Virus record (IMG/VR): IMGVR_UViG_3300045988_094037
Source: a virus
Strand: one strand, 5' to 3'
Length of the DNA stretch: 64,000 bases
Part shown: piece after piece, positions 12,871 to 32,397 of the stretch
Layout of the letters: each line of letters starts with the position of its first letter
Position numbering within the stretch: position 1 is the stretch's first letter
Translations under genes and position numbers: made by a program
The notes under the pieces: generated by a model
Seen by the model: the letters and a program-made list of their open reading frames with translations, nothing else
What the model was told of the DNA's origin: nothing
The model's database searches: none

Positions 12871-12946
12871 ACTCCGGTAGTTCAAAGGTTAGAACGGGCG
12901 ACTTATAATCGCTTGATGCTTGGTTCGAGTCCAGCTCGGAGTACCA
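12871..12946 (+). tRNA. tRNA-Ile (anticodon TAT)
   Basis: Acceptor ACTCCGG/TCGGAGT; D-arm GTTC..GAAC; anticodon stem GGCGA/TCGCT with loop CTTATAA; T-loop TTCGAGT; CCA encoded. Confidence 0.65.
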
Positions 12947-12986
12947 TTTAAGAGGACAGACCCAATAGGAGGGCCCTCTTGCTATA

Positions 12987-13101
12987 AGACGCATACAGCA
13001 AATCTATTTCCAGAATAGTCAAATGGTTAAGACATTTCAACTCAAAGTGAAAAATTATCGGTTCGAATCCGATTTCCGGAGCTAAATAGCTAGCGTCTTG
13101 A
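12987..13101 (+). ncRNA. Stem-closed structured element A (AGACGC-ATACAGCAAAT...GCGTCT-TGA) containing a tRNA-like domain
   Basis: 5' AGACGC pairs with 3' GCGTCT; the motif ATACAGCAAAT is conserved in four other elements; the interior folds as a cloverleaf with a mismatched acceptor and an 8-nt anticodon loop. Confidence 0.5.
13009..13081 (+). ncRNA. Atypical tRNA-like domain inside element A (8-nt anticodon loop ACTCAAAG, mismatched acceptor, no CCA)
   Basis: Good D-arm, T-arm (ATCGG TTCGAAT CCGAT) and a 5-bp anticodon stem, but an 8-nt loop and an A·C mismatch in the acceptor. Confidence 0.4.
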
Positions 13102-13160
13102 AAACATTTGAAAAACTTTTATAAATATGATATAATATTTATAGAAAGTAAGAAAGGAAG

Positions 13161-13367
13161 TTGCATATGGATAAGAAGTTATATCTTGCACAACTCGCGG
13201 CCGAGGCTCTTTCTTGTTATAAAAATGAGGATAGTATTTGTGATGCTATTTGGCTTATGAATGGTGGAGTTGGTGGCCCCGAGGAACAGTGGGAGAACTT
13301 TAACGCAACTTTCAAGGATACCTTTGGTATTTCTTATGATGAAGCTAAACAACTGAATCTTTTTTGA
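13161..13367 (+). CDS. hypothetical protein (68 aa)
   Basis: ORF behind the promoter/RBS cassette. Confidence 0.55.
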   Translation: MHMDKKLYLAQLAAEALSCYKNEDSICDAIWLMNGGVGGPEEQWENFNATFKDTFGISYDEAKQLNLF

Positions 13368-13392
13368 AAAACAATAAAAAATATTGTATAAT
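13364..13392 (+). promoter_or_regulatory. sigma-A-type promoter TTGAAA-N17-TGTATAAT (for a tRNA/ncRNA unit)
   Basis: Extended -10 TGTATAAT; the same 30-mer recurs at 14656 and 43030. Confidence 0.5.
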
Positions 13393-13401
13393 ATTTATAT
13401 A

Positions 13402-13476
13402 AGGCAGACACAGCAAATCTTTTATTAAATAAAACACTTATTTTTGGTTTAAGAAAGTTTATTTATTCTGCCTTGA
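13402..13476 (+). ncRNA. Stem-closed element D (AGGCAGA-CACAGCAAATC...TCTGCCT-TGA)
   Basis: A 7-bp closing stem with the conserved ACAGCAAAT motif; AT-rich interior; immediately precedes tRNA-Asn. Confidence 0.45.
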
Positions 13477-13480
13477 GCTT

Positions 13481-13557
13481 GGGTCGGTAGCTCAGAAGAG
13501 TAGAGCGCTTGCCTGTTAAGCAAGATGTCGTGGGTTCGAGCCCCACCCTTCCCGCCA
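13481..13557 (+). tRNA. tRNA-Asn (anticodon GTT), acceptor stem with two mismatches
   Basis: Anticodon arm CTTGC-CTGTTAA-GCAAG; T-arm GTGGG-TTCGAGC-CCCAC; CCA encoded; acceptor GGGTCGG/CCTTCCC is imperfect. Confidence 0.5.
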
Positions 13558-13683
13558 AAGTCGAGTTTGTGAGTAGCGCCGCGACTTTAACCCTAAACTC
13601 TCAATTCGTCCACTGCGAACTAAAATAATAGGCTGGCCCAATAGAGCGACGGGTAGTTCTGAAACAAATAGTTGCTCTTTTAT

Positions 13684-13760
13684 GTTCTCGTGGTGCAATA
13701 GGCAGACACGCGTGGTTTAGAACCATGATGTTGCGGGTTCGACTCCCGCCGGGAACACCA
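13684..13760 (+). tRNA. tRNA with anticodon TAG (Leu by anticodon) but a class-I short variable arm
   Basis: Acceptor GTTCTCG/CGGGAAC; anticodon arm CGTGG-TTTAGAA-CCATG; T-arm GCGGG-TTCGACT-CCCGC; CCA encoded. Confidence 0.5.
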
Positions 13761-13917
13761 GATGGTTCCGGTGACATTGTCTTAAACCCATATAACCGGC
13801 GGAGCTATGGCCCGTAGTTGAAGACTGGATTTCTTGTCGTAAATGGCCAAGCATTTATGATGGCTAGTCAGTATTAAAAGAGGAAGCCTTGGAACTCGAT
13901 CAATACCATAGAAATAT

Positions 13918-14004
13918 GCGCGTGTGCTGGAATCGGCAGACAGGCGAGCTTGAGGTGCTCGTGTTCGTAAGAGCGTATGGGTTCAAGTCCCATCATGCGC
14001 ACCA
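13918..14004 (+). tRNA. tRNA-Leu (anticodon GAG), class II
   Basis: Acceptor GCGCGTG/CATGCGC; anticodon arm CGAGC-TTGAGGT-GCTCG; long variable arm; T-loop TTCAAGT; CCA. Confidence 0.7.
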
Positions 14005-14108
14005 TGGTTTCTACTGATTTCCCATGCCCAATAAGTCAGAAGTGTGATATATGTGAACGACGAGGCGCAAAGCACACGGGGTGCGTATGACCCTTCCTCG
14101 CCTTATAC

Positions 14109-30825: not shown

Positions 30826-30846
30826 ATTTATAGAAAGTTGAAAGAT

Positions 30847-31173
30847 ATGAAAAACTGTTTGGATTGTAATAAATGTTGGGTTGTAAAAGACCCCGATCCA
30901 AAAGACGATACTTGTTTAGCTGCTTTCTGTAGCAAGTCTAGAACAAGAGGCATGAAATGCAATGAAATTTCATACCTAATGCCTTTAGGATATAATTCTG
31001 CGTTCGCGGAAAGTCCTCTTCCTGACGACCCATGGATTACCGTTGCGGAACATTGGGATACTCTTAGAGAAAAATGCGCCGTTCCAGATTGGTGTCCGGG
31101 AATGGAAGAGAATGGAGAATATAGTTTGTTTACAGATAAAACATCGGTTGATATTATGAAAGAGCGACAGTAA
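30847..31173 (+). CDS. hypothetical Cys-rich protein (108 aa)
   Basis: ATG 30847 in frame with the track ORF 30838. Confidence 0.55.
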   Translation: MKNCLDCNKCWVVKDPDPKDDTCLAAFCSKSRTRGMKCNEISYLMPLGYNSAFAESPLPDDPWITVAEHWDTLREKCAVPDWCPGMEENGEYSLFTDKTSVDIMKERQ

Positions 31174-31262
31174 CTAAAAGACGCTTTCAGCAATTTATTT
31201 TAAGAATATAAAAAAGTTTGATTTTTAATTTCTTGCCATGATTTTGCGTCTTGAGAATATAT

Positions 31263-31338
31263 TGCGGAGTAGCGTAATGGTTTAGCGCAGGGGTCTCTAA
31301 AACCTCGGGAGTGGGTTCGAATCCCACCTCCGCTGCCA
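31263..31338 (+). tRNA. suppressor tRNA (anticodon CTA, reads UAG); Gln-like features (G73)
   Basis: TGCGGAG-TA-GCG..CGC-A-GGGGT-CTCTAAA-ACCTC-GGGA-GTGGG-TTCGAAT-CCCAC-CTCCGCT-G-CCA; loop positions 34-36 are CTA, U33 and A37 are present; G73 as in the two Gln tRNAs of this window. Confidence 0.7.
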
Positions 31339-31358
31339 TATTATAAGGAGGTATTCGT

Positions 31359-31673
31359 ATGAGTAGATCAAGAAAGAAAACTCCGTACAATACAGATACT
31401 TCCCAGAAATTCTTGAAGAAAGTCGCAAATAAGAGAGTTAGAAGGCTTCTAAAAAATCCTGATAATAGTTTACCTTATAGTTCATATAAGAAAGCCTTTC
31501 AATCATGGGATATTTGTGACTATAAAAATTACGGGCATAGCTTTGAAGAGTTCTATAAAGAAGAGGTCGCTCTGTGGAGACATTGGAGAACTCTTCCTTA
31601 TTGGAAGAATGAACCAAAACCAACAAGGGAAGAATGTTGGTTAGATTACCTCAAACAGTATTTGCGAAAATAA
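31359..31673 (+). CDS. hypothetical basic protein (104 aa)
   Basis: TAAGGAGGT RBS. Confidence 0.55.
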   Translation: MSRSRKKTPYNTDTSQKFLKKVANKRVRRLLKNPDNSLPYSSYKKAFQSWDICDYKNYGHSFEEFYKEEVALWRHWRTLPYWKNEPKPTREECWLDYLKQYLRK

Positions 31674-31743
31674 GAAATTTTTGCAATAACTTAAAAAATA
31701 TTTTATAATATAAGTGTAAATCTTCCTTTCAAATATATAAATA

Positions 31744-31842
31744 AGGCTCATACAGCAAAATTTTATTGCCGAATATTCGGCTCCTTGGATGAATCAAATG
31801 TATGATATACCCTAAGTATGATGCGATATTGCGAGCCTTGCA
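31744..31842 (+). ncRNA. Stem-closed element C (AGGCTC-ATACAGCAAAAT...GAGCCT)
   Basis: Same conserved motif and covarying closing stem; the interior holds the palindrome GCCGAATATTCGGC. Confidence 0.45.
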
Positions 31843-31874
31843 ATTAAAACAATAAAGTGTTAAAACGGGGCATC

Positions 31875-31932
31875 GCGCGGAAGAGCCATTATATAATGGA
31901 CATAGGGCCATTCTTCCGCGCATTTTCTTTAT
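31875..31932 (+). terminator. rho-independent terminator (10-bp GC stem)
   Basis: gcgcggaaga ... tcttccgcgc followed by ATTTTCTTT. Confidence 0.65.
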
Positions 31933-31949
31933 CGGGGAGTTGGCAATTT

Positions 31950-32105
31950 ATGTGGCAAAATAATATTGAATTTTTAGATGTACTTACAATGATTTCTTTT
32001 ATTCTTCAGGTATAGAACTCAGAAGGTTGTAAACTAGATGAAGTAAATAAAAAGTTGGATGTTTTAATTGCTGAGGTTGCTAAATTAAATGCTCGAGTGG
32101 GCTAA
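31950..32105 (+). CDS. hypothetical small protein (51 aa, one TAG), overlaps the next tRNA
   Basis: GGGGAG RBS; low confidence because it overlaps the 5' end of the tRNA at 32091. Confidence 0.25.
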
Positions 32106-32167
32106 TTGGTATAGCCGTCAAGCTCAAACCTTGATGTTTGTGAGTTCGAGTCTCACCTCGAGTACCA
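32091..32167 (+). tRNA. tRNA with anticodon CAA (Leu by anticodon) but class-I architecture
   Basis: Acceptor GCTCGAG/CTCGAGT; anticodon arm TCAAG-CTCAAAC-CTTGA; T-arm GTGAG-TTCGAGT-CTCAC; CCA. Confidence 0.5.
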
Positions 32168-32310
32168 AAAGCCTCAGAATCGTGTAGATTCATGCCTCTT
32201 TTTTTATTATAGCTAAAAAAATGCAAACCTAATTGGGCTATAACCAATTAGCTAAAGAGTTAGGGGTTTTCTTTAGGGTAGAGCCACCGCCTTAGATCGT
32301 GGCATTATAT

Positions 32311-32397
32311 GTGAACGTAGCCAAGTGGATTAAGGCCCCGGTCTGCAAAACCGCGTGACCCAAAAGGGCGTGGGTTCGAATCCCACCGTTCACTCCA
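32311..32397 (+). tRNA. tRNA with anticodon GCA (Cys by anticodon) and an unusually long variable arm
   Basis: Acceptor GTGAACG/CGTTCAC; anticodon loop CTGCAAA; a 15-nt variable region; T-arm GTGGG-TTCGAAT-CCCAC; CCA. Confidence 0.45.

What the first reader, a model, noticed from the sequence alone, without database searches (positions are those of the whole stretch)
12871..32397. Very large tRNA complement (~33 genes, a near-complete decoding set) with several non-canonical members
The window carries tRNAs for all 20 amino acids, plus a CUA suppressor and initiator-like and elongator Met. The 12.8-25.1 kb block alone holds 29 tRNAs interspersed with small ORFs, a homing endonuclease, a tmRNA and unassigned 200-300-nt spacers. 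Oddities: tRNA-Ile(UAU); two tRNAs with Leu anticodons (UAG at 13684, CAA at 32091) but class-I short variable arms; a class-II tRNA with anticodon AGA; a GCA-anticodon tRNA with a long variable arm; mismatched acceptor stems in Asn, and an initiator-like C1·A72. Such complements fit a phage with strongly divergent codon usage (AT-rich, TAG-recoded) or one that shuts off host tRNA supply.
Basis: seen in the sequence. Interest (0 to 1): 0.55.

Follow-up and report, generated by a model that had tools for sequence, protein, structure and literature searches.

The report
Phage tRNA island with tRNA mimics
A gut phage that reads the TAG stop codon as glutamine carries almost a full set of its own tRNAs, some with unusual shapes, interleaved with tRNA look-alike RNAs that probably partner a Ro60-like protein encoded next door.

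Summary
Window 12871-32397 (+ strand) holds 31 ARAGORN tRNAs. It also holds a tRNA-Asp split by a 468-nt endonuclease cassette, a divergent tRNA-Tyr, a tmRNA (tag DEDYFENYLAA) and a twister-like ribozyme.

The atypical members are not pseudogenes. In 50 related phage loci the short-arm tRNA-Leu (UAG, CAA; A73) and the long-arm tRNA-Cys (GCA; U73) keep their stems through many compensatory changes. TAG aligns with conserved Gln, and the set covers every codon box except CGG.

Two further points change the picture.
- Three "tRNAs" (13009, 22950-23077, 23406-23524) are tRNA-like domains of a repeated RNA element. It has a covarying stem AAGACNNN/NNNGUCUUGA followed by ACAGCAA. It fills inter-tRNA spacers, appears in Listeria and Bacillus phages, and in one relative matches Rfam YrlA (Y RNA-like).
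- The gene just after the array (32641-34161, DUF2828) has a predicted Ro60 fold, and RNA-repair genes follow it.

I read the region as a tRNA supply-and-maintenance island. This is a new variant of known kinds. How the tRNA-Asp insert is removed, if it is, remains unexplained.

The parts
12871..12946 (+). tRNA-Ile(UAU), reads AUA
   Evidence: ARAGORN. Rfam 60.5 bits. Ile(UAU) recurs in at least 12 related loci. AUA makes up 13% of Ile codons.
12984..13101 (+). Element E1: stem AAGACGC/GCGUCUU plus ACAGCAA, enclosing the tRNA-like domain 13009-13082 that ARAGORN calls 'Leu(CAA)'
   Evidence: My reading gives a stem UUUCA/UGAAA with an 8-nt loop ACUCAAAG, no CCA, an A4.C69 mismatch and 38% GC. 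The closing complement lies 108 nt downstream; fold. The L022 homologue has a 7-nt loop.
13399..13474 (+). Element E2: stem AAGGCAG/CUGCCUU plus ACAGCAA. It forms the 5' leader of tRNA-Asn and follows promoter 13364-13392
13481..13557 (+). tRNA-Asn(GUU) with U4.U69 and C5.U68 mismatches in the acceptor stem
   Evidence: Rfam 59.3 bits.
13684..13760 (+). tRNA-Leu(UAG) with a short (5-nt) variable loop, a Leu-type D arm, A73 and CCA
   Evidence: Rfam 56.2 bits. Of 23 unique class-I Leu-anticodon tRNAs in relatives, 21 have A73, and every stem position shows several pair types. The closest bodies are class II tRNA-Leu.
13918..14004 (+). tRNA-Leu(GAG), class II
   Evidence: 47.4 bits.
14109..14653 (+). 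tRNA-Asp(GUC) interrupted between U35 and C36. Exons are 14109-14144 and 14613-14653; the insert is 14145-14612
   Evidence: Uninterrupted 77-nt alleles occur in L002 and L004. Interrupted alleles occur in L003, L028 and L032.
14190..14603 (+). PD-(D/E)XK endonuclease ORF inside the Asp insert. The TTG start is inferred, and the ORF has one in-frame TAG
   Evidence: Pfam PF11645, E 4.6e-19. Reading frame.
14868..15652 (+). tRNA-Ala(UGC) 14868-14943, Glu(UUC) 15196-15270, Glu(CUC) 15575-15652
15965..16039 (+). tRNA-Met(CAU) with C1.A72 and C73, an odd D arm, and no G-C triplet in the anticodon stem
   Evidence: Found by ARAGORN only; no Rfam hit at E<=1. Conserved with compensatory acceptor-stem changes in L003, L004 and L039.
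16375..16432 (+). Twister-P1-like ribozyme ending 5 nt before tRNA-Ser(GCU)
   Evidence: Rfam RF03160, 51.7 bits (gathering score 67.2), E 4.6e-11, with the conserved core nucleotides matched.
16438..19837 (+). tRNAs Ser(GCU) 16438, Thr(UGU) 16915, His(GUG) 17173, Lys(UUU) 18035, Gly(UCC) 18381, Ile(GAU) 18683, Trp(CCA) 18999, Arg(UCU) 19605, Phe(GAA) 19763
   Evidence: For His, G-1 is encoded and there is a U1.C72 mismatch.
19968..20750 (+). Free-standing GIY-YIG homing endonuclease ORF with in-frame TAGs
   Evidence: Pfam PF01541. Its TAGs align with K, K and W in homologues.
20718..21038 (+). tmRNA, tag peptide DEDYFENYLAA
   Evidence: Rfam 76.8 bits. Tag peptide. Conserved in L007 and L043.
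21044..22188 (+). tRNAs Lys(CUU) 21044, Arg(ACG) 21671, Ser(AGA) 21751 (class II, A34), Pro(UGG) 22115
   Evidence: UCU is the commonest Ser codon at 42%. Ser(AGA) is conserved in many loci.
22231..22376 (+). Element E3: stem AGACUCAA/UUGAGUCU plus ACAGCAA
22649..22724 (+). tRNA-Val(UAC)
22950..23077 (+). Element E4: stem AAGACGCAU/AUGCGUCUU plus ACAGCAA. It encloses a circularly permuted tRNA-like domain (T arm, closed acceptor-like hairpin, D arm, anticodon-like arm) and ends 9 nt before tRNA-Gln(UUG)
23085..23236 (+). tRNA-Gln(UUG) 23085-23158 and tRNA-Gln(CUG) 23162-23236
23406..23524 (+). Element E5: a tRNA-topology Y RNA-like RNA. It has acceptor, D and T arms, with the module (GGUCUUG-UUA-AAGACC, ACAGCAA) in place of the anticodon arm, and it ends GCCG rather than CCA
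   Evidence: Rfam tRNA 49.8 bits with 55 nt skipped. A family of 16 or more members shows a covarying hairpin. The circular permutation aligns with the L026 YrlA-like RNA at 99 of 142 columns, score 138.5 against 49 unpermuted and 44.6+-6.5 for shuffles.
23608..23694 (+). tRNA-Leu(UAA), class II
23713..23799 (+). Divergent class II tRNA-Tyr(GUA): A73 and CCA, variable arm GCU-UUCG-AGC, atypical D and T arms
   Evidence: Shares its acceptor stem and variable arm with Tyr tRNAs of relatives.
24991..25066 (+). tRNA(CAU), either elongator Met or Ile2-type, followed by a terminator-like hairpin at 25151-25179
30522..30609 (+). tRNA-Ser(UGA)
31176..31252 (+). Element E6: stem AAGACGC/GCGUCUU plus UCAGCAA. 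It forms the 5' leader of the suppressor tRNA
31263..31338 (+). Amber suppressor tRNA(CUA), class I, with G73 and U1.U72. Its acceptor stem resembles that of tRNA-Gln(UUG)
   Evidence: TAG aligns with Gln.
31741..31841 (+). Element E7: stem AAGGCUC/GAGCCUU plus ACAGCAA, with its own promoter-like site and a terminator-like hairpin
32091..32167 (+). tRNA-Leu(CAA) with a short (4-nt) variable loop, A73 and CCA
   Evidence: Rfam 59.8 bits. Orthologues in relatives are 82-87 nt. Covariation.
32311..32397 (+). tRNA-Cys(GCA) with a long variable arm, U73, CCA and a 7/5 acceptor/T-stem arrangement
   Evidence: Rfam 54.6 bits. There are 13 unique long-arm copies, all with U73, with compensatory changes that include the variable arm. 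L017 carries a short-arm orthologue.
32641..34161 (+). Ro60-like protein (DUF2828 + DUF7788, i.e. TROVE-like plus vWA)
   Evidence: Pfam. phrog_850 'RNA-binding protein', E 8e-120. AF2 model with pLDDT 80.8. The top 10 PDB fold matches are all Ro60/TROVE, E 6.5e-8, TM 0.55. Present in at least 26 related loci and 711 phage records.
38055..50446 (+). RNA repair and tRNA maturation genes: RlaP-like nucleotidyltransferase 38055-38846, phosphoesterase 38839-39597, RNase T-like exonuclease 40387-41202, RNA ligase 41553-42824, YqeY 44421-44870, Thg1-like 48435-49289, kinase 49353-49886, phosphoesterase 49883-50446
   Evidence: Pfam, PHROGs.

Best explanation
The region is the tRNA island of a large Firmicutes-type phage that reads TAG as glutamine in part of its genes. 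I see four kinds of content.

1. About 31 decoding tRNA genes. They cover all 20 amino acids plus an amber suppressor of glutamine type. Several near-consensus sigma-70-like promoters lie within the array (inferred to drive its transcription). The set supplies the AT-rich codon usage of the phage and makes its TAG-containing late genes translatable. The odd-shaped members are working variants kept by selection: tRNA-Leu without the long variable arm, tRNA-Cys with one, Ser(AGA), Ile(UAU), and the divergent Tyr and Met. Bacterial LeuRS needs A73 and the D/T-loop corner, not the long arm. CysRS reads U73 and GCA. So host synthetases can probably still charge them (inferred).

2. A repeated structured RNA element that fills spacers. 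It has a 7-9-bp stem AAGACNNN/NNNGUCUUGA immediately followed by ACAGCAA. Three copies carry tRNA-like domains. One of these (E5) has the topology of a tRNA and is a circular permutation of a YrlA-type Y RNA-like RNA. These copies are mimics, not decoders. The element is most likely the RNA partner of the Ro60-like protein encoded right after the array (inferred from adjacency, synteny and the YrlA match).

3. A tmRNA, a twister-like ribozyme in a tRNA leader, and two homing endonuclease genes. One of them interrupts tRNA-Asp.

4. Downstream RNA ligase, kinase, phosphoesterase, Thg1-like, exonuclease and YqeY genes. These make the whole a tRNA supply-and-maintenance module (inferred).
For: - Gene calls and scores.
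- Family context: 50 related loci, most with 20-39 tRNAs next to the same ATPase.
- Selection on the variants: 23 unique short-arm Leu tRNAs and 13 unique long-arm Cys tRNAs keep nearly all stem pairs through several pair types. A73 occurs in 21 of 23 Leu; U73 in 13 of 13 Cys. The Leu bodies are nearest to class II Leu.
- LeuRS independence from the long arm: PMC9976931.
- TAG as Gln: the ATPase TAG aligns with Q in 24 of 31 orthologues. Q is the commonest residue at tail-fibre TAG sites.
- Codon coverage, and Ser(AGA) matching the top Ser codon UCU.
- The element:
  - ACAGCAA occurs 18 times against 7.25 expected.
  - A stricter form of the motif gives 73 instances on the + strand and 0 on the - strand.
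  - 56 of 136 unique instances have an exact closing complement, against 2 of 136 in a swapped control. Ends lie 7-12 nt before the next tRNA.
  - The variable triplet is complemented in 48 of 109, against about 2 expected, with 16 different triplets.
- Link to Y RNA: the L026 copy matches Rfam YrlA, E 3.8e-10. E5 is its circular permutation.
- Ro60 fold of 32641-34161. Homologues are annotated 'Ro-like RNA binding protein' in mycobacteriophages.
- The same order (tRNA array, element copies, DUF2828, RNA ligases or phosphatase) occurs in Listeria phage LP-124 and Bacillus phage Nate.
- Abundant unannotated transcripts upstream of the Ro-like gene in a related Listeria phage: PMC12282133.
- Repair genes.
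Against: - No expression, aminoacylation or binding data exist for this phage.
- The element lacks the GNCGAAN0-1G motif proposed as the Ro-binding site of YrlA (PMC4201824).
- No window copy reaches any Rfam YrlA threshold. The only YrlA hit is in a relative and lies below the gathering score.
- Several copies (E2, E3, E6, E7) have no tRNA-like domain and could be plain processing or leader structures.
- In relatives the same module sits in anticodon stems of tRNAs that would be perfectly canonical if it were removed. That fits an intron as well as a mimic.
- The suppressor's Gln identity rests mainly on one well-aligned site, pooled weaker sites and resemblance. In the GIY-YIG gene, TAG aligns with K and W.
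- tRNA-Asp may be dead, which would leave the set incomplete.
Confidence: 0.72

Rival explanations
1. The ACAGCAA module marks excision cassettes rather than Ro partners. An endonuclease cuts at the base of the stem, and the phage kinase, phosphatase and ligase rejoin the ends. On this reading the copies inside anticodon stems, and the rod-shaped Asp insert, are protein-spliced tRNA introns, and the spacer copies release neighbouring tRNAs.
For: - In relatives, removing the module from Asn, Ile, Tyr and Leu tRNAs restores perfect 5-bp anticodon stems and canonical 7-nt loops.
- Module ends lie 1-4 nt after one tRNA and 7-12 nt before the next.
- The four copies of the Asp insert (three sequence lineages) fold as a rod that puts the two junctions opposite each other, using different sequences.
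- Ligase, kinase and phosphoesterase genes are present.
- A twister-like ribozyme occupies the same leader position before tRNA-Ser.
Against: - No endonuclease candidate or cleavage motif was identified.
- By eye, no bulge-helix-bulge motif is present.
- E5 in the window has no usable anticodon loop conserved among its orthologues: UGG, AUG, AGG and UAG all occur. It matches the conserved UGCUUGGGG box of YrlA instead.
- The Asp insert does not contain the module.
Confidence: 0.2
2. The array exists mainly as a counter-defence. It replaces host tRNAs that are degraded or cut by anticodon nucleases, and the altered variable arms and body sequences let phage tRNAs escape those nucleases. Codon matching and recoding are secondary.
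For: - The set is nearly complete rather than biased to rare codons.
- A heal-and-seal enzyme set, a Thg1-like enzyme and a Ro60-like protein are encoded next to it.
- The same synteny with RtcB-like and RNA ligase genes occurs in Listeria phage LP-124.
- Variable-arm gain and loss recurs in several lineages.
- From my own knowledge: T4 and T5 tRNAs counter anticodon nucleases.
Against: - No host, host defence system or host tRNA set is known here.
- The suppressor is needed for TAG-containing genes regardless of any defence role.
- Ser(AGA) matches the commonest Ser codon, which points to codon matching.
Confidence: 0.3
3. The atypical members are decaying pseudogenes, and only the canonical tRNAs matter.
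For: - 13009 lacks CCA, has a mismatch and has an 8-nt loop.
- Asn has two acceptor-stem mismatches.
- Tyr and Met 15965 escape the Rfam tRNA model.
- Asp is interrupted.
Against: - Short-arm Leu and long-arm Cys score 55-60 bits. They are conserved across phages whose ATPases are only 40-60% identical, with compensatory changes in every stem and fixed discriminator bases.
- 13009 is explained as part of a conserved element.
- Tyr and Met 15965 are conserved in relatives.
Confidence: 0.05
4. The AAGAC...ACAGCAA motif is a DNA-level signal, such as a phage promoter or recombination site, and not an RNA structure.
For: - It is an approximately 18-nt conserved, strand-specific sequence.
- It often lies 10-20 nt downstream of a TATAAT box or at the start of a transcription unit.
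Against: - The three variable bases covary with a distant complement in 48 of 109 cases, against about 2 expected.
- The distance to that complement ranges from 54 to 156 nt.
- One copy is recognised by a structural RNA model.
- In E5 the two strands are joined by a 3-nt loop.
Confidence: 0.05

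Closest known systems
TAG-to-Gln recoded gut phages with large tRNA sets (phAss-1 / proposed Phassvirus, PMC10607447; Agate, Sapphire, Lak and crAss-like clades, bioRxiv 10.1101/2021.08.26.457843)
   Same: - Genomes of about 130-150 kb.
- 28-36 tRNAs including CUA suppressors.
- TAG concentrated in structural and lysis genes.
- No dedicated synthetase.
- Homing endonuclease genes carry recoded stops.
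- Hosts probably Clostridia.
   Different: - No nucleotide similarity beyond one tRNA.
- Those papers, in the passages I read, do not mention short-arm Leu, long-arm Cys, tRNA-embedded cassettes, Y RNA-like elements or the Ro60-like gene.
Rsr (Ro60) with YrlA Y RNAs, e.g. the Salmonella rsr-yrlBA-rtcBA operon and mycobacteriophage Ro-like proteins (PMC4201824)
   Same: - A Ro60-fold protein is encoded on the same strand within a few kb of RNAs that combine a terminal stem with T-arm and D-arm mimics.
- RNA ligase genes are linked.
- One relative's copy matches the YrlA model.
   Different: - The protein belongs to Pfam DUF2828, not TROVE.
- The conserved RNA motif is ACAGCAA next to an AAGAC stem, not GNCGAAN0-1G.
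- There are at least 7 copies per window.
- They serve as inter-tRNA spacers and tRNA leaders.
- The tRNA-like domain occurs in three topologies, including one with open acceptor ends (E5) and one with a whole cloverleaf inside the stem (E1).
selC* tRNA-Cys and allo-tRNAs (PMC5389517, PMC7609411)
   Same: A long variable arm combined with U73 and a GCA anticodon. Found in anaerobes and their phages.
   Different: Those have 8/4 or 9/3 acceptor/T stems and Sec-like D arms. The tRNA here is 7/5 with an ordinary tRNA-Cys D arm.
Animal mitochondrial tRNA-Leu without a long variable arm
   Same: A Leu anticodon, A73 and a short variable loop. LeuRS recognition does not need the arm (PMC9976931).
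   Different: Here the setting is a phage of bacteria, where tRNA-Leu is stated to be class II everywhere except animal mitochondria. The class II type D arm is retained, and class II Leu tRNAs sit alongside in the same array.
Group I intron with the I-Ssp6803I PD-(D/E)XK homing endonuclease in cyanobacterial tRNA-fMet (family assignment from my own knowledge of Pfam PF11645)
   Same: - Same endonuclease family.
- Insertion in the anticodon loop.
- Presence/absence polymorphism among close relatives.
- Exon 1 ends in U and the insert ends in G in the window and L028.
   Different: - No ribozyme core. There are only about 45 nt before the ORF and 9 nt after it, and no Rfam group I hit even at E<=10.
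- The insertion site shifts by 1 nt in L032.
Theta (HDV-like) ribozymes next to phage tRNAs (PMC10879173)
   Same: Small structured RNAs directly abutting tRNA ends in recoded gut phages.
   Different: The theta core (ACC-U-CC-NCGU-GGU) is absent from the window, and CAGCAA is absent from their sequence tables. The one recognisable ribozyme here is twister-like and lies 5' of a tRNA.

Membership tests
Decoding tRNA (for 13684, 32091, 32311, 21751, 12871) | Cloverleaf scoring above the Rfam tRNA gathering score, with a 7-nt anticodon loop and CCA or a discriminator base | tested here: met
   54.6-60.5 bits against a cut-off of 29. ARAGORN structures.
Decoding tRNA (for 13684, 32091, 32311) | Stems maintained by compensatory changes in relatives | tested here: met
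   23 unique short-arm Leu and 13 unique long-arm Cys copies. Nearly all positions are paired, with 2-6 pair types each.
Decoding tRNA (for 13684, 32091, 32311) | Aminoacylation with the amino acid that the anticodon implies | not testable with these tools
   Only the identity elements can be read: A73 for Leu, and U73 plus GCA for Cys.
Decoding tRNA (for 13009-13082) | 7-nt anticodon loop, paired acceptor stem, free 5' and 3' ends | tested here: not met
   8-nt loop, A.C mismatch, no CCA, and both ends continue into the AAGACGC/GCGUCUU stem.
selC* tRNA-Cys / allo-tRNA | 8/4 or 9/3 acceptor/T-stem arrangement | tested here: not met
   7-bp acceptor stem and 5-bp T stem in all 13 copies. Definition.
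YrlA-type Y RNA | Encoded within about 4 kb of a Ro60 orthologue on the same strand | tested here: met
   E6 and E7 lie 0.8-1.5 kb upstream of 32641. In L006-L016 a copy lies directly upstream. There are three tandem copies upstream in Listeria LP-124. E1-E5 lie 9-19 kb upstream.
YrlA-type Y RNA | Terminal stem formed by the 5' and 3' ends, plus a tRNA-like domain with T and D arms | tested here: met
   Met for E1 and E4. E5 has the same parts circularly permuted. E2, E3, E6 and E7 have the stem but no tRNA-like domain.
YrlA-type Y RNA | GNCGAAN0-1G motif near the 5' end (proposed Ro-binding site) | tested here: not met
   The conserved motif is ACAGCAA after AAGRCNNN. YrlA definition.
YrlA-type Y RNA | Rfam RF02553 score at or above the gathering score of 69 bits | tested here: not met
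   No window hit at E<=1. L026 scores 48.2 bits, E 3.8e-10. Bacillus phage Nate scores 31.4 bits.
YrlA-type Y RNA | Binding to the Ro60 orthologue | not testable with these tools
   Needs RIP/CLIP or a gel-shift assay.
Ro60 / TROVE protein (32641-34161) | HEAT-repeat ring plus vWA fold | tested here: met
   Foldseek top 10 are all Ro60/TROVE over the full length, E 6.5e-8 to 2.3e-5, TM 0.37-0.56. Model pLDDT 80.8.
Ro60 / TROVE protein (32641-34161) | Sequence match to Pfam TROVE or to solved Ro60 chains | tested here: not met
   Pfam gives DUF2828 and DUF7788 only. phmmer against PDB finds nothing.
Group I intron in a tRNA anticodon loop (14145-14612) | Group I ribozyme core | tested here: not met
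   No RF00028 hit at E<=10 in 581 nt. About 54 nt of the 468 are non-coding.
Group I intron in a tRNA anticodon loop (14145-14612) | Mobile element encoding a homing endonuclease, with intron-less alleles in relatives | tested here: met
   PF11645, E 4.6e-19. L002 and L004 are uninterrupted; L003, L028 and L032 are interrupted.
Theta (HDV-like) ribozyme | P3/L3 core RCC-U-YC-NCGY-GGY next to a tRNA 3' end | tested here: not met
   One 1-mismatch match, inside a coding region, against 0.64 expected. The motif is absent from their tables.
Twister-P1 ribozyme (16375-16432) | Conserved core and pairings of RF03160 | tested here: inconclusive
   51.7 bits is below the gathering score of 67.2, but E is 4.6e-11 and the core nucleotides align. 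One hairpin is shortened. Self-cleavage was not tested.
tmRNA (20718-21038) | Rfam RF00023 at or above gathering score, and a tag reading frame ending in a degron | tested here: met
   76.8 bits against 47. Tag DEDYFENYLAA followed by stops. Homologous tags in L007 and L043.
Code-15 (TAG = Gln) phage | In-frame TAG in otherwise intact genes, a CUA suppressor tRNA, and TAG aligned with Gln in orthologues | tested here: met
   Weaker support, with a K/K/W exception in the GIY-YIG gene.

The most novel reading that the evidence does not exclude
Phage tRNA arrays of Firmicutes phages contain a previously undescribed, widespread RNA module: the AAGAC stem plus ACAGCAA, possibly the docking site of a DUF2828-type Ro60 protein. 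The module can be grafted onto tRNAs at either end or inside the anticodon stem. That yields a series running from ordinary tRNA, through a tRNA carrying the module, to circularly permuted Y RNA. This series would show how Y RNAs arise from tRNAs. It would also suggest that a phage Ro60 particle, together with the linked ligase, kinase and Thg1-like enzymes, controls the maturation, caging or splicing of phage tRNAs, including the ribozyme-less insert in tRNA-Asp.
Probability: 0.25. Interest if true: 0.85.

Novelty: new variant of a known kind. Interest (0 to 1): 0.66.

Why it matters
Large tRNA sets and TAG recoding in gut phages are already known. What is new lies in the details.

- **tRNA shape rules.** A review states that tRNA-Leu has a long variable arm everywhere except animal mitochondria. 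Here, and in at least a dozen related phages, short-arm tRNA-Leu is conserved next to long-arm copies, and tRNA-Cys has gained a long arm. These are natural experiments on what synthetases, and perhaps host nucleases, really read.
- **A sequence and structure for proposed phage Y RNAs.** The repeated spacer element may give a concrete definition to the 'possible Y RNAs' proposed from transcriptomics of a Listeria phage. It ties them to a Ro60-fold protein found in more than 700 phage records. It also offers permuted forms that link tRNA and Y RNA architecture.
- **A possible new way to remove a tRNA insert.** If the tRNA-Asp insert is removed from the RNA, it would be a bacterial-virus tRNA intron that does not use a group I ribozyme.

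All of these can be tested directly by small-RNA sequencing of cultured relatives such as Listeria P100-like phages and Bacillus phage Nate.

Tried and rejected
- **Close relative in the annotated phage collection.** Megablast of the 12.3-kb block found only single tRNAs.
- **Group I intron for the Asp insert.** There was no Rfam hit at E<=1 on 20 kb or at E<=10 on 581 nt, and there is no room beside the ORF.
- **Bulge-helix-bulge motif at the Asp and E5 junctions.** Looked for by eye and not found. No formal search was run.
- **First reading of 23406-23524 as a tRNA-Pro with a 44-nt mini-intron.** Dropped for the window copy for two reasons. The 'anticodon' differs among orthologues, and the permuted sequence aligns with a YrlA-like RNA. 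It stays open for the Asn, Ile, Tyr and Leu carriers in relatives.
- **ACAGCAA module as a theta ribozyme.** Rejected.
- **Module as a promoter.** Rejected because of stem covariation.
- **Long-arm Cys as selC* or allo-tRNA.** Rejected because its structure is 7/5.
- **Sequence search of the DUF2828 protein against PDB.** Nothing was found, so a fold search was needed.
- **Stop-codon census of my ORF set.** Uninformative, because TAG was treated as sense by construction.
- **RNAfold of individual module-bearing arms.** No common fold appeared beyond the hairpin.
- **Literature searches for phage tRNA mini-introns and for suppressors with long variable arms.** Nothing relevant was returned.

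Full report
**1. What is there**

ARAGORN finds 31 tRNA genes on the + strand between 12871 and 32397. Rfam finds 30 tRNA hits above its gathering score and a tmRNA at 20718-21038. Allowing inserts adds two genes:
- A tRNA whose halves, 14109-14144 and 14613-14653, are separated by 468 nt.
- A 119-nt tRNA-like RNA at 23406-23524.

A class II tRNA-Tyr(GUA) at 23713-23799 is missed by default settings. The tRNA-Sec model sees it at 33 bits, ARAGORN calls it at a relaxed threshold, and it folds as a cloverleaf.

The split gene is tRNA-Asp(GUC). L002 and L004, close relatives of the window, carry the uninterrupted 77-nt gene with identical exons.

The tmRNA encodes the tag DEDYFENYLAA. L007 and L043 have homologous tags.

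**2. Context**

The window has 36% G+C, and its genes lie almost entirely on one strand.

Treating TAG as sense merges fragments into long ORFs in some regions: 25.6-29.8 kb (tail-fibre-like, Mtd_N domains), 54.5-56 kb, and 63.2 kb onward. ORFs at 32.6-51.5 kb have almost no in-frame TAG.

The ATPase next to the array has a TAG at codon 11. That position is Q in 24 of 31 orthologues, including the 81-82% identical L003 and L004. At tail-fibre TAG sites, Q is the commonest aligned residue.

The ATPase resembles those of Herelleviridae of Bacillus, Enterococcus, Staphylococcus and Listeria. The nearest published kind is the group of TAG-recoded gut phages with 28-36 tRNAs, such as phAss-1 and the clades of Borges et al.. 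There is no nucleotide-level relative in the annotated phage collection.

**3. Relatives**

A search with the ATPase returned 50 viral contigs (98% to 31% identity). I fetched 10 kb on each side of the gene. Most carry 20-39 tRNAs around the gene. I parsed 996 tRNA calls from the window and these loci.

**4. The shape variants are working tRNAs**

*Short-arm tRNA-Leu.* Leu-anticodon tRNAs of 75-77 nt with a 4-5-nt variable loop occur in the window (13684 UAG, 32091 CAA) and in at least a dozen loci. They sit beside ordinary 81-94-nt Leu tRNAs.
- The 23 unique short copies keep nearly every stem pair while using 2-6 pair types per position. Of these, 21 have A73.
- Their acceptor, D and T parts are closest to class II Leu tRNAs.
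- Orthologues of 32091 are 82-87 nt in L006-L017, so the arm has shrunk within a lineage.

*Long-arm tRNA-Cys.* The 87-nt GCA tRNA has 13 unique long-arm relatives (80-90 nt).
- All have U73.
- They show compensatory changes in the acceptor stem (GUGAACG, GCGAACG, GGUAAAG, CGCCAAG) and in the variable arm (CCC/GGG against CCU/AGG).
- L017 has a short-arm orthologue with a nearly identical acceptor stem and D arm.
- The arrangement is 7/5, unlike selC* tRNA-Cys.

*Why charging is plausible.* A review states that E. coli LeuRS needs A73 and the D/T-loop corner but not the long arm. It also states that tRNA-Leu is class II everywhere except animal mitochondria. Charging by host LeuRS is therefore plausible, and the short-arm form is unexpected in a bacterial system. 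U73 and GCA as the main Cys identity elements are cited.

*Other variants.*
- Ser(AGA) is conserved and matches UCU, the commonest Ser codon at 42%.
- Ile(UAU) reads AUA.
- Met 15965 (C1.A72) escapes Rfam but is conserved with compensatory changes.
- Assuming U34 reads whole four-codon boxes, the set covers every codon box except CGG.

**5. A repeated RNA element fills spacers and explains three 'tRNAs'**

A repeat search and a motif count first pointed to ACAGCAA, which occurs 18 times against 7.25 expected. The motif follows AAGRCNNN by 1-4 nt. A stricter form of the motif gives 73 instances on the + strand of the window and loci, and none on the - strand.

The AAGRCNNN segment pairs with NNNGYCUUGA 54-156 nt downstream.
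- 56 of 136 unique instances have an exact 7-nt complement, against 2 of 136 when the triplet is swapped.
- Among 109 instances with a downstream complement of the constant part, the variable triplet is exactly complemented in 48, against about 2 expected, using 16 different triplets.

The element usually starts 1-4 nt after one tRNA and ends 7-12 nt before the next.

The window has seven copies:

| Copy | Coordinates | Features |
|---|---|---|
| E1 | 12984-13101 | Encloses the 74-nt 'tRNA-Leu(CAA)' at 13009. This explains its 8-nt loop, mismatch, low G+C and missing CCA |
| E2 | 13399-13474 | Leader of tRNA-Asn |
| E3 | 22231-22376 | Stem and motif only |
| E4 | 22950-23077 | Encloses a T arm, a closed acceptor-like hairpin, a D arm and an anticodon-like arm |
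| E5 | 23406-23524 | tRNA topology, module closed by a UUA loop |
| E6 | 31176-31252 | Leader of the suppressor tRNA |
| E7 | 31741-31841 | Has its own promoter-like site and terminator-like hairpin |

**6. Link to Y RNA and Ro60**

In L026 a copy (3018-3152) is matched by the Rfam YrlA model at 48.2 bits, E 3.8e-10. That is below the gathering score. Our stem forms its outer helix.

E5 has the same parts in a different order: acceptor 5' strand, D arm, GGUCUUG-UUA-AAGACC, ACAGCAA, the UGCUU(U)GGG box, T arm, acceptor 3' strand. Cut at the UUA loop and rejoined at the acceptor end, it aligns with the L026 RNA at 99 of 142 columns. The score is 138.5, against 49 unpermuted and 44.6+-6.5 for shuffles. 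What looked like a UGG anticodon loop is therefore the conserved YrlA box. Orthologues show UGG, AUG, AGG or UAG at that place.

The gene right after the array, 32641-34161, is DUF2828 + DUF7788 in Pfam and 'RNA-binding protein' in PHROGs. Its AlphaFold model (pLDDT 80.8) matches Ro60/TROVE structures in all ten top PDB hits over the full length, including a Thermus phage Ro60. vWA domains follow.

The gene is present in at least 26 of the related loci and in 711 phage records. In mycobacteriophages it is annotated 'Ro-like RNA binding protein'. Chen et al. predicted YrlA RNAs next to Ro60 orthologues in 22 phages, mycobacteriophages among them.

In Listeria phage LP-124 the order is as follows:
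- 18 tRNAs;
- a ROOL-like RNA;
- three tandem copies of the element (stems AGGAAUC/GAUUCCU, AGAGAGC/GCUCUCU, AGGAAGC/GCUUCCU, each followed by ACAGCAA);
- DUF2828;
- further downstream, RtcB-like and RNA ligase genes.

Bacillus phage Nate has three copies among 21 tRNAs. One has a YrlA-like interior. DUF2828 and a phosphatase follow.

A transcriptome study of a P100-like Listeria phage reports three very abundant unannotated transcripts within 2 kb upstream of the Ro-like gene. It proposes that they might be Y RNAs, and it finds the protein in virions.

The match to YrlA is incomplete. The proposed Ro-binding motif GNCGAAN0-1G is absent, and no window copy reaches a YrlA score. I therefore call these Y RNA-like elements and do not file them as YrlA.

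**7. The tRNA-Asp insert**

The insert (14145-14612) lies between U35 and C36. It is almost entirely an ORF of the PD-(D/E)XK family PF11645 (E 4.6e-19) with one in-frame TAG.

It is present in the window, L003, L028 and L032, and absent from L002 and L004. In L032 the site is shifted by 1 nt. No group I core is detectable.

In all four copies the RNA folds as a rod. The rod has three parts:
- the anticodon stem;
- a helix in which the two junctions face each other;
- a 13-16-bp helix between the 5' untranslated part and the 3' end of the ORF, built from unrelated sequences in the three lineages.

My estimates for what this means are rough:

| Reading | Estimate |
|---|---|
| A mobile endonuclease cassette that has simply killed the gene | about 0.45 |
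| A protein-assisted intron, using the ligase, kinase and phosphoesterase genes in the window | about 0.35 |
| An unrecognised ribozyme | about 0.2 |

**8. Other parts**

- A twister-P1-like sequence at 16375-16432 (51.7 bits, E 4.6e-11) ends 5 nt before tRNA-Ser(GCU).
- Seven 11-of-12 matches to TTGAAA-17-TATAAT lie at or just upstream of the start of the array and within it. Five of them belong to a 60-nt repeat.
- No theta ribozyme core is present.
- Downstream genes include an RlaP-like nucleotidyltransferase, phosphoesterases, an RNase T-like exonuclease, an RNA ligase, YqeY, a Thg1-like enzyme and a kinase.

**9. Verdict**

The large tRNA set itself is a known feature of recoded gut phages.

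The parts I consider new variants are:
- conserved short-arm tRNA-Leu and long-arm tRNA-Cys;
- the ACAGCAA-stem element with its three tRNA-like topologies and its link to a DUF2828 Ro60-fold protein;
- the ribozyme-less cassette in tRNA-Asp.

All functional statements (charging, Ro binding, processing, splicing) are inferences from sequence and synteny.

Noticed in passing
Related loci, not the window: L005 2269-2359, L011 2535, L017 2999, L024 1584, L026 17897, L032 16946, L036 15579, L041 10748, L043 19029, L044 17878: In many relatives the CUA suppressor is 88-97 nt. It has a Gln-like body (mismatched or weak 1:72 pair, mostly G73, 4-bp D stem) plus a long variable arm. The hairpin loop of that arm looks like a 7-nt anticodon loop carrying a Gln anticodon (CUCUGAA, UUCUGAG, and CUUUGAA in L043). 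This could be a decoy anticodon that keeps Gln identity. L026 has both a 75-nt and a 97-nt suppressor.
   Followed up: partly
window 34573-37014: The 813-aa protein directly after the Ro60-like gene matches major vault protein domains: MVP shoulder at E 6e-18, Vault repeats, and SPFH. A TROVE-fold protein next to an MVP-like protein recalls the vault particle.
   Followed up: no
window 43072-47630: An isochorismatase/nicotinamidase-like gene and a phosphoribosyltransferase-like gene were identified. Two neighbouring ORFs, 45319-46908 and 46905-47630, were not scanned. Together they look like an NAD salvage set.
   Followed up: partly
window 19968-20750: The three in-frame TAGs in the catalytic domain of the GIY-YIG endonuclease align with K, K and a conserved W in 10 homologues, not with Q. 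Either the gene is decaying or read-through gives an impaired enzyme.
   Followed up: partly
L005-L017 at about 9902, L024 12426; also L006 2859, L010 4639, L011 4352, L015 3603, L039 19612: tRNAs with 8-nt anticodon loops recur. A 74-nt GCGGGGC... tRNA with loop GUUAAAAG and CCA lies just upstream of the ATPase. A low-GC 75-nt one has the 4-nt anticodon call UGUU, and some of its copies lie inside ACAGCAA elements.
   Followed up: partly
L006 15398-15480, L007 16217, L008 13982, L014 16497, L016 12800: Directly after the long-arm tRNA-Cys comes the module. It is followed by what looks like the 3' part of a tRNA-Tyr (anticodon arm GGA-CUGUAAA-UCC, T arm, CCUCCCC-A-CCA) with no 5' half. The Ro60-like gene comes next.
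   Followed up: no
L026 13421-14012; L051 (Listeria phage LP-124) 4471-5022: A ROOL RNA (312.6 bits) lies immediately upstream of a module-bearing tRNA-Leu in L026. A ROOL-like hit (87.4 bits, below the gathering score) lies inside the LP-124 tRNA array.
   Followed up: no
window 17173-17248 and 48435-49289: tRNA-His has an encoded G-1 and a U1.C72 mismatch in the window, L002 and L004. In L005-type relatives G-1 is not encoded. A Thg1-like gene, E 3e-29, lies in the window.
   Followed up: partly
window 16794-16832, 15315-15342, 18817-18837: These are T-arm-like sequences (GGGTTCGACTCCC and similar) that no program calls as tRNA. They may be remnants or parts of other structured RNAs.
   Followed up: no
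Related loci: tRNAs with A at the wobble position are common in this phage group: Cys(ACA), Thr(AGU), Pro(AGG), Leu(AAG), Ile(AAU) and Phe(AAA), as well as Ser(AGA) and Arg(ACG). I did not look for a deaminase gene.
   Followed up: no
window 44421-44870: This is a YqeY-family protein (E 7e-9). From my own knowledge, the YqeY domain helps some GlnRS and GatB enzymes bind tRNA-Gln, so it could aid charging of the suppressor.
   Followed up: no
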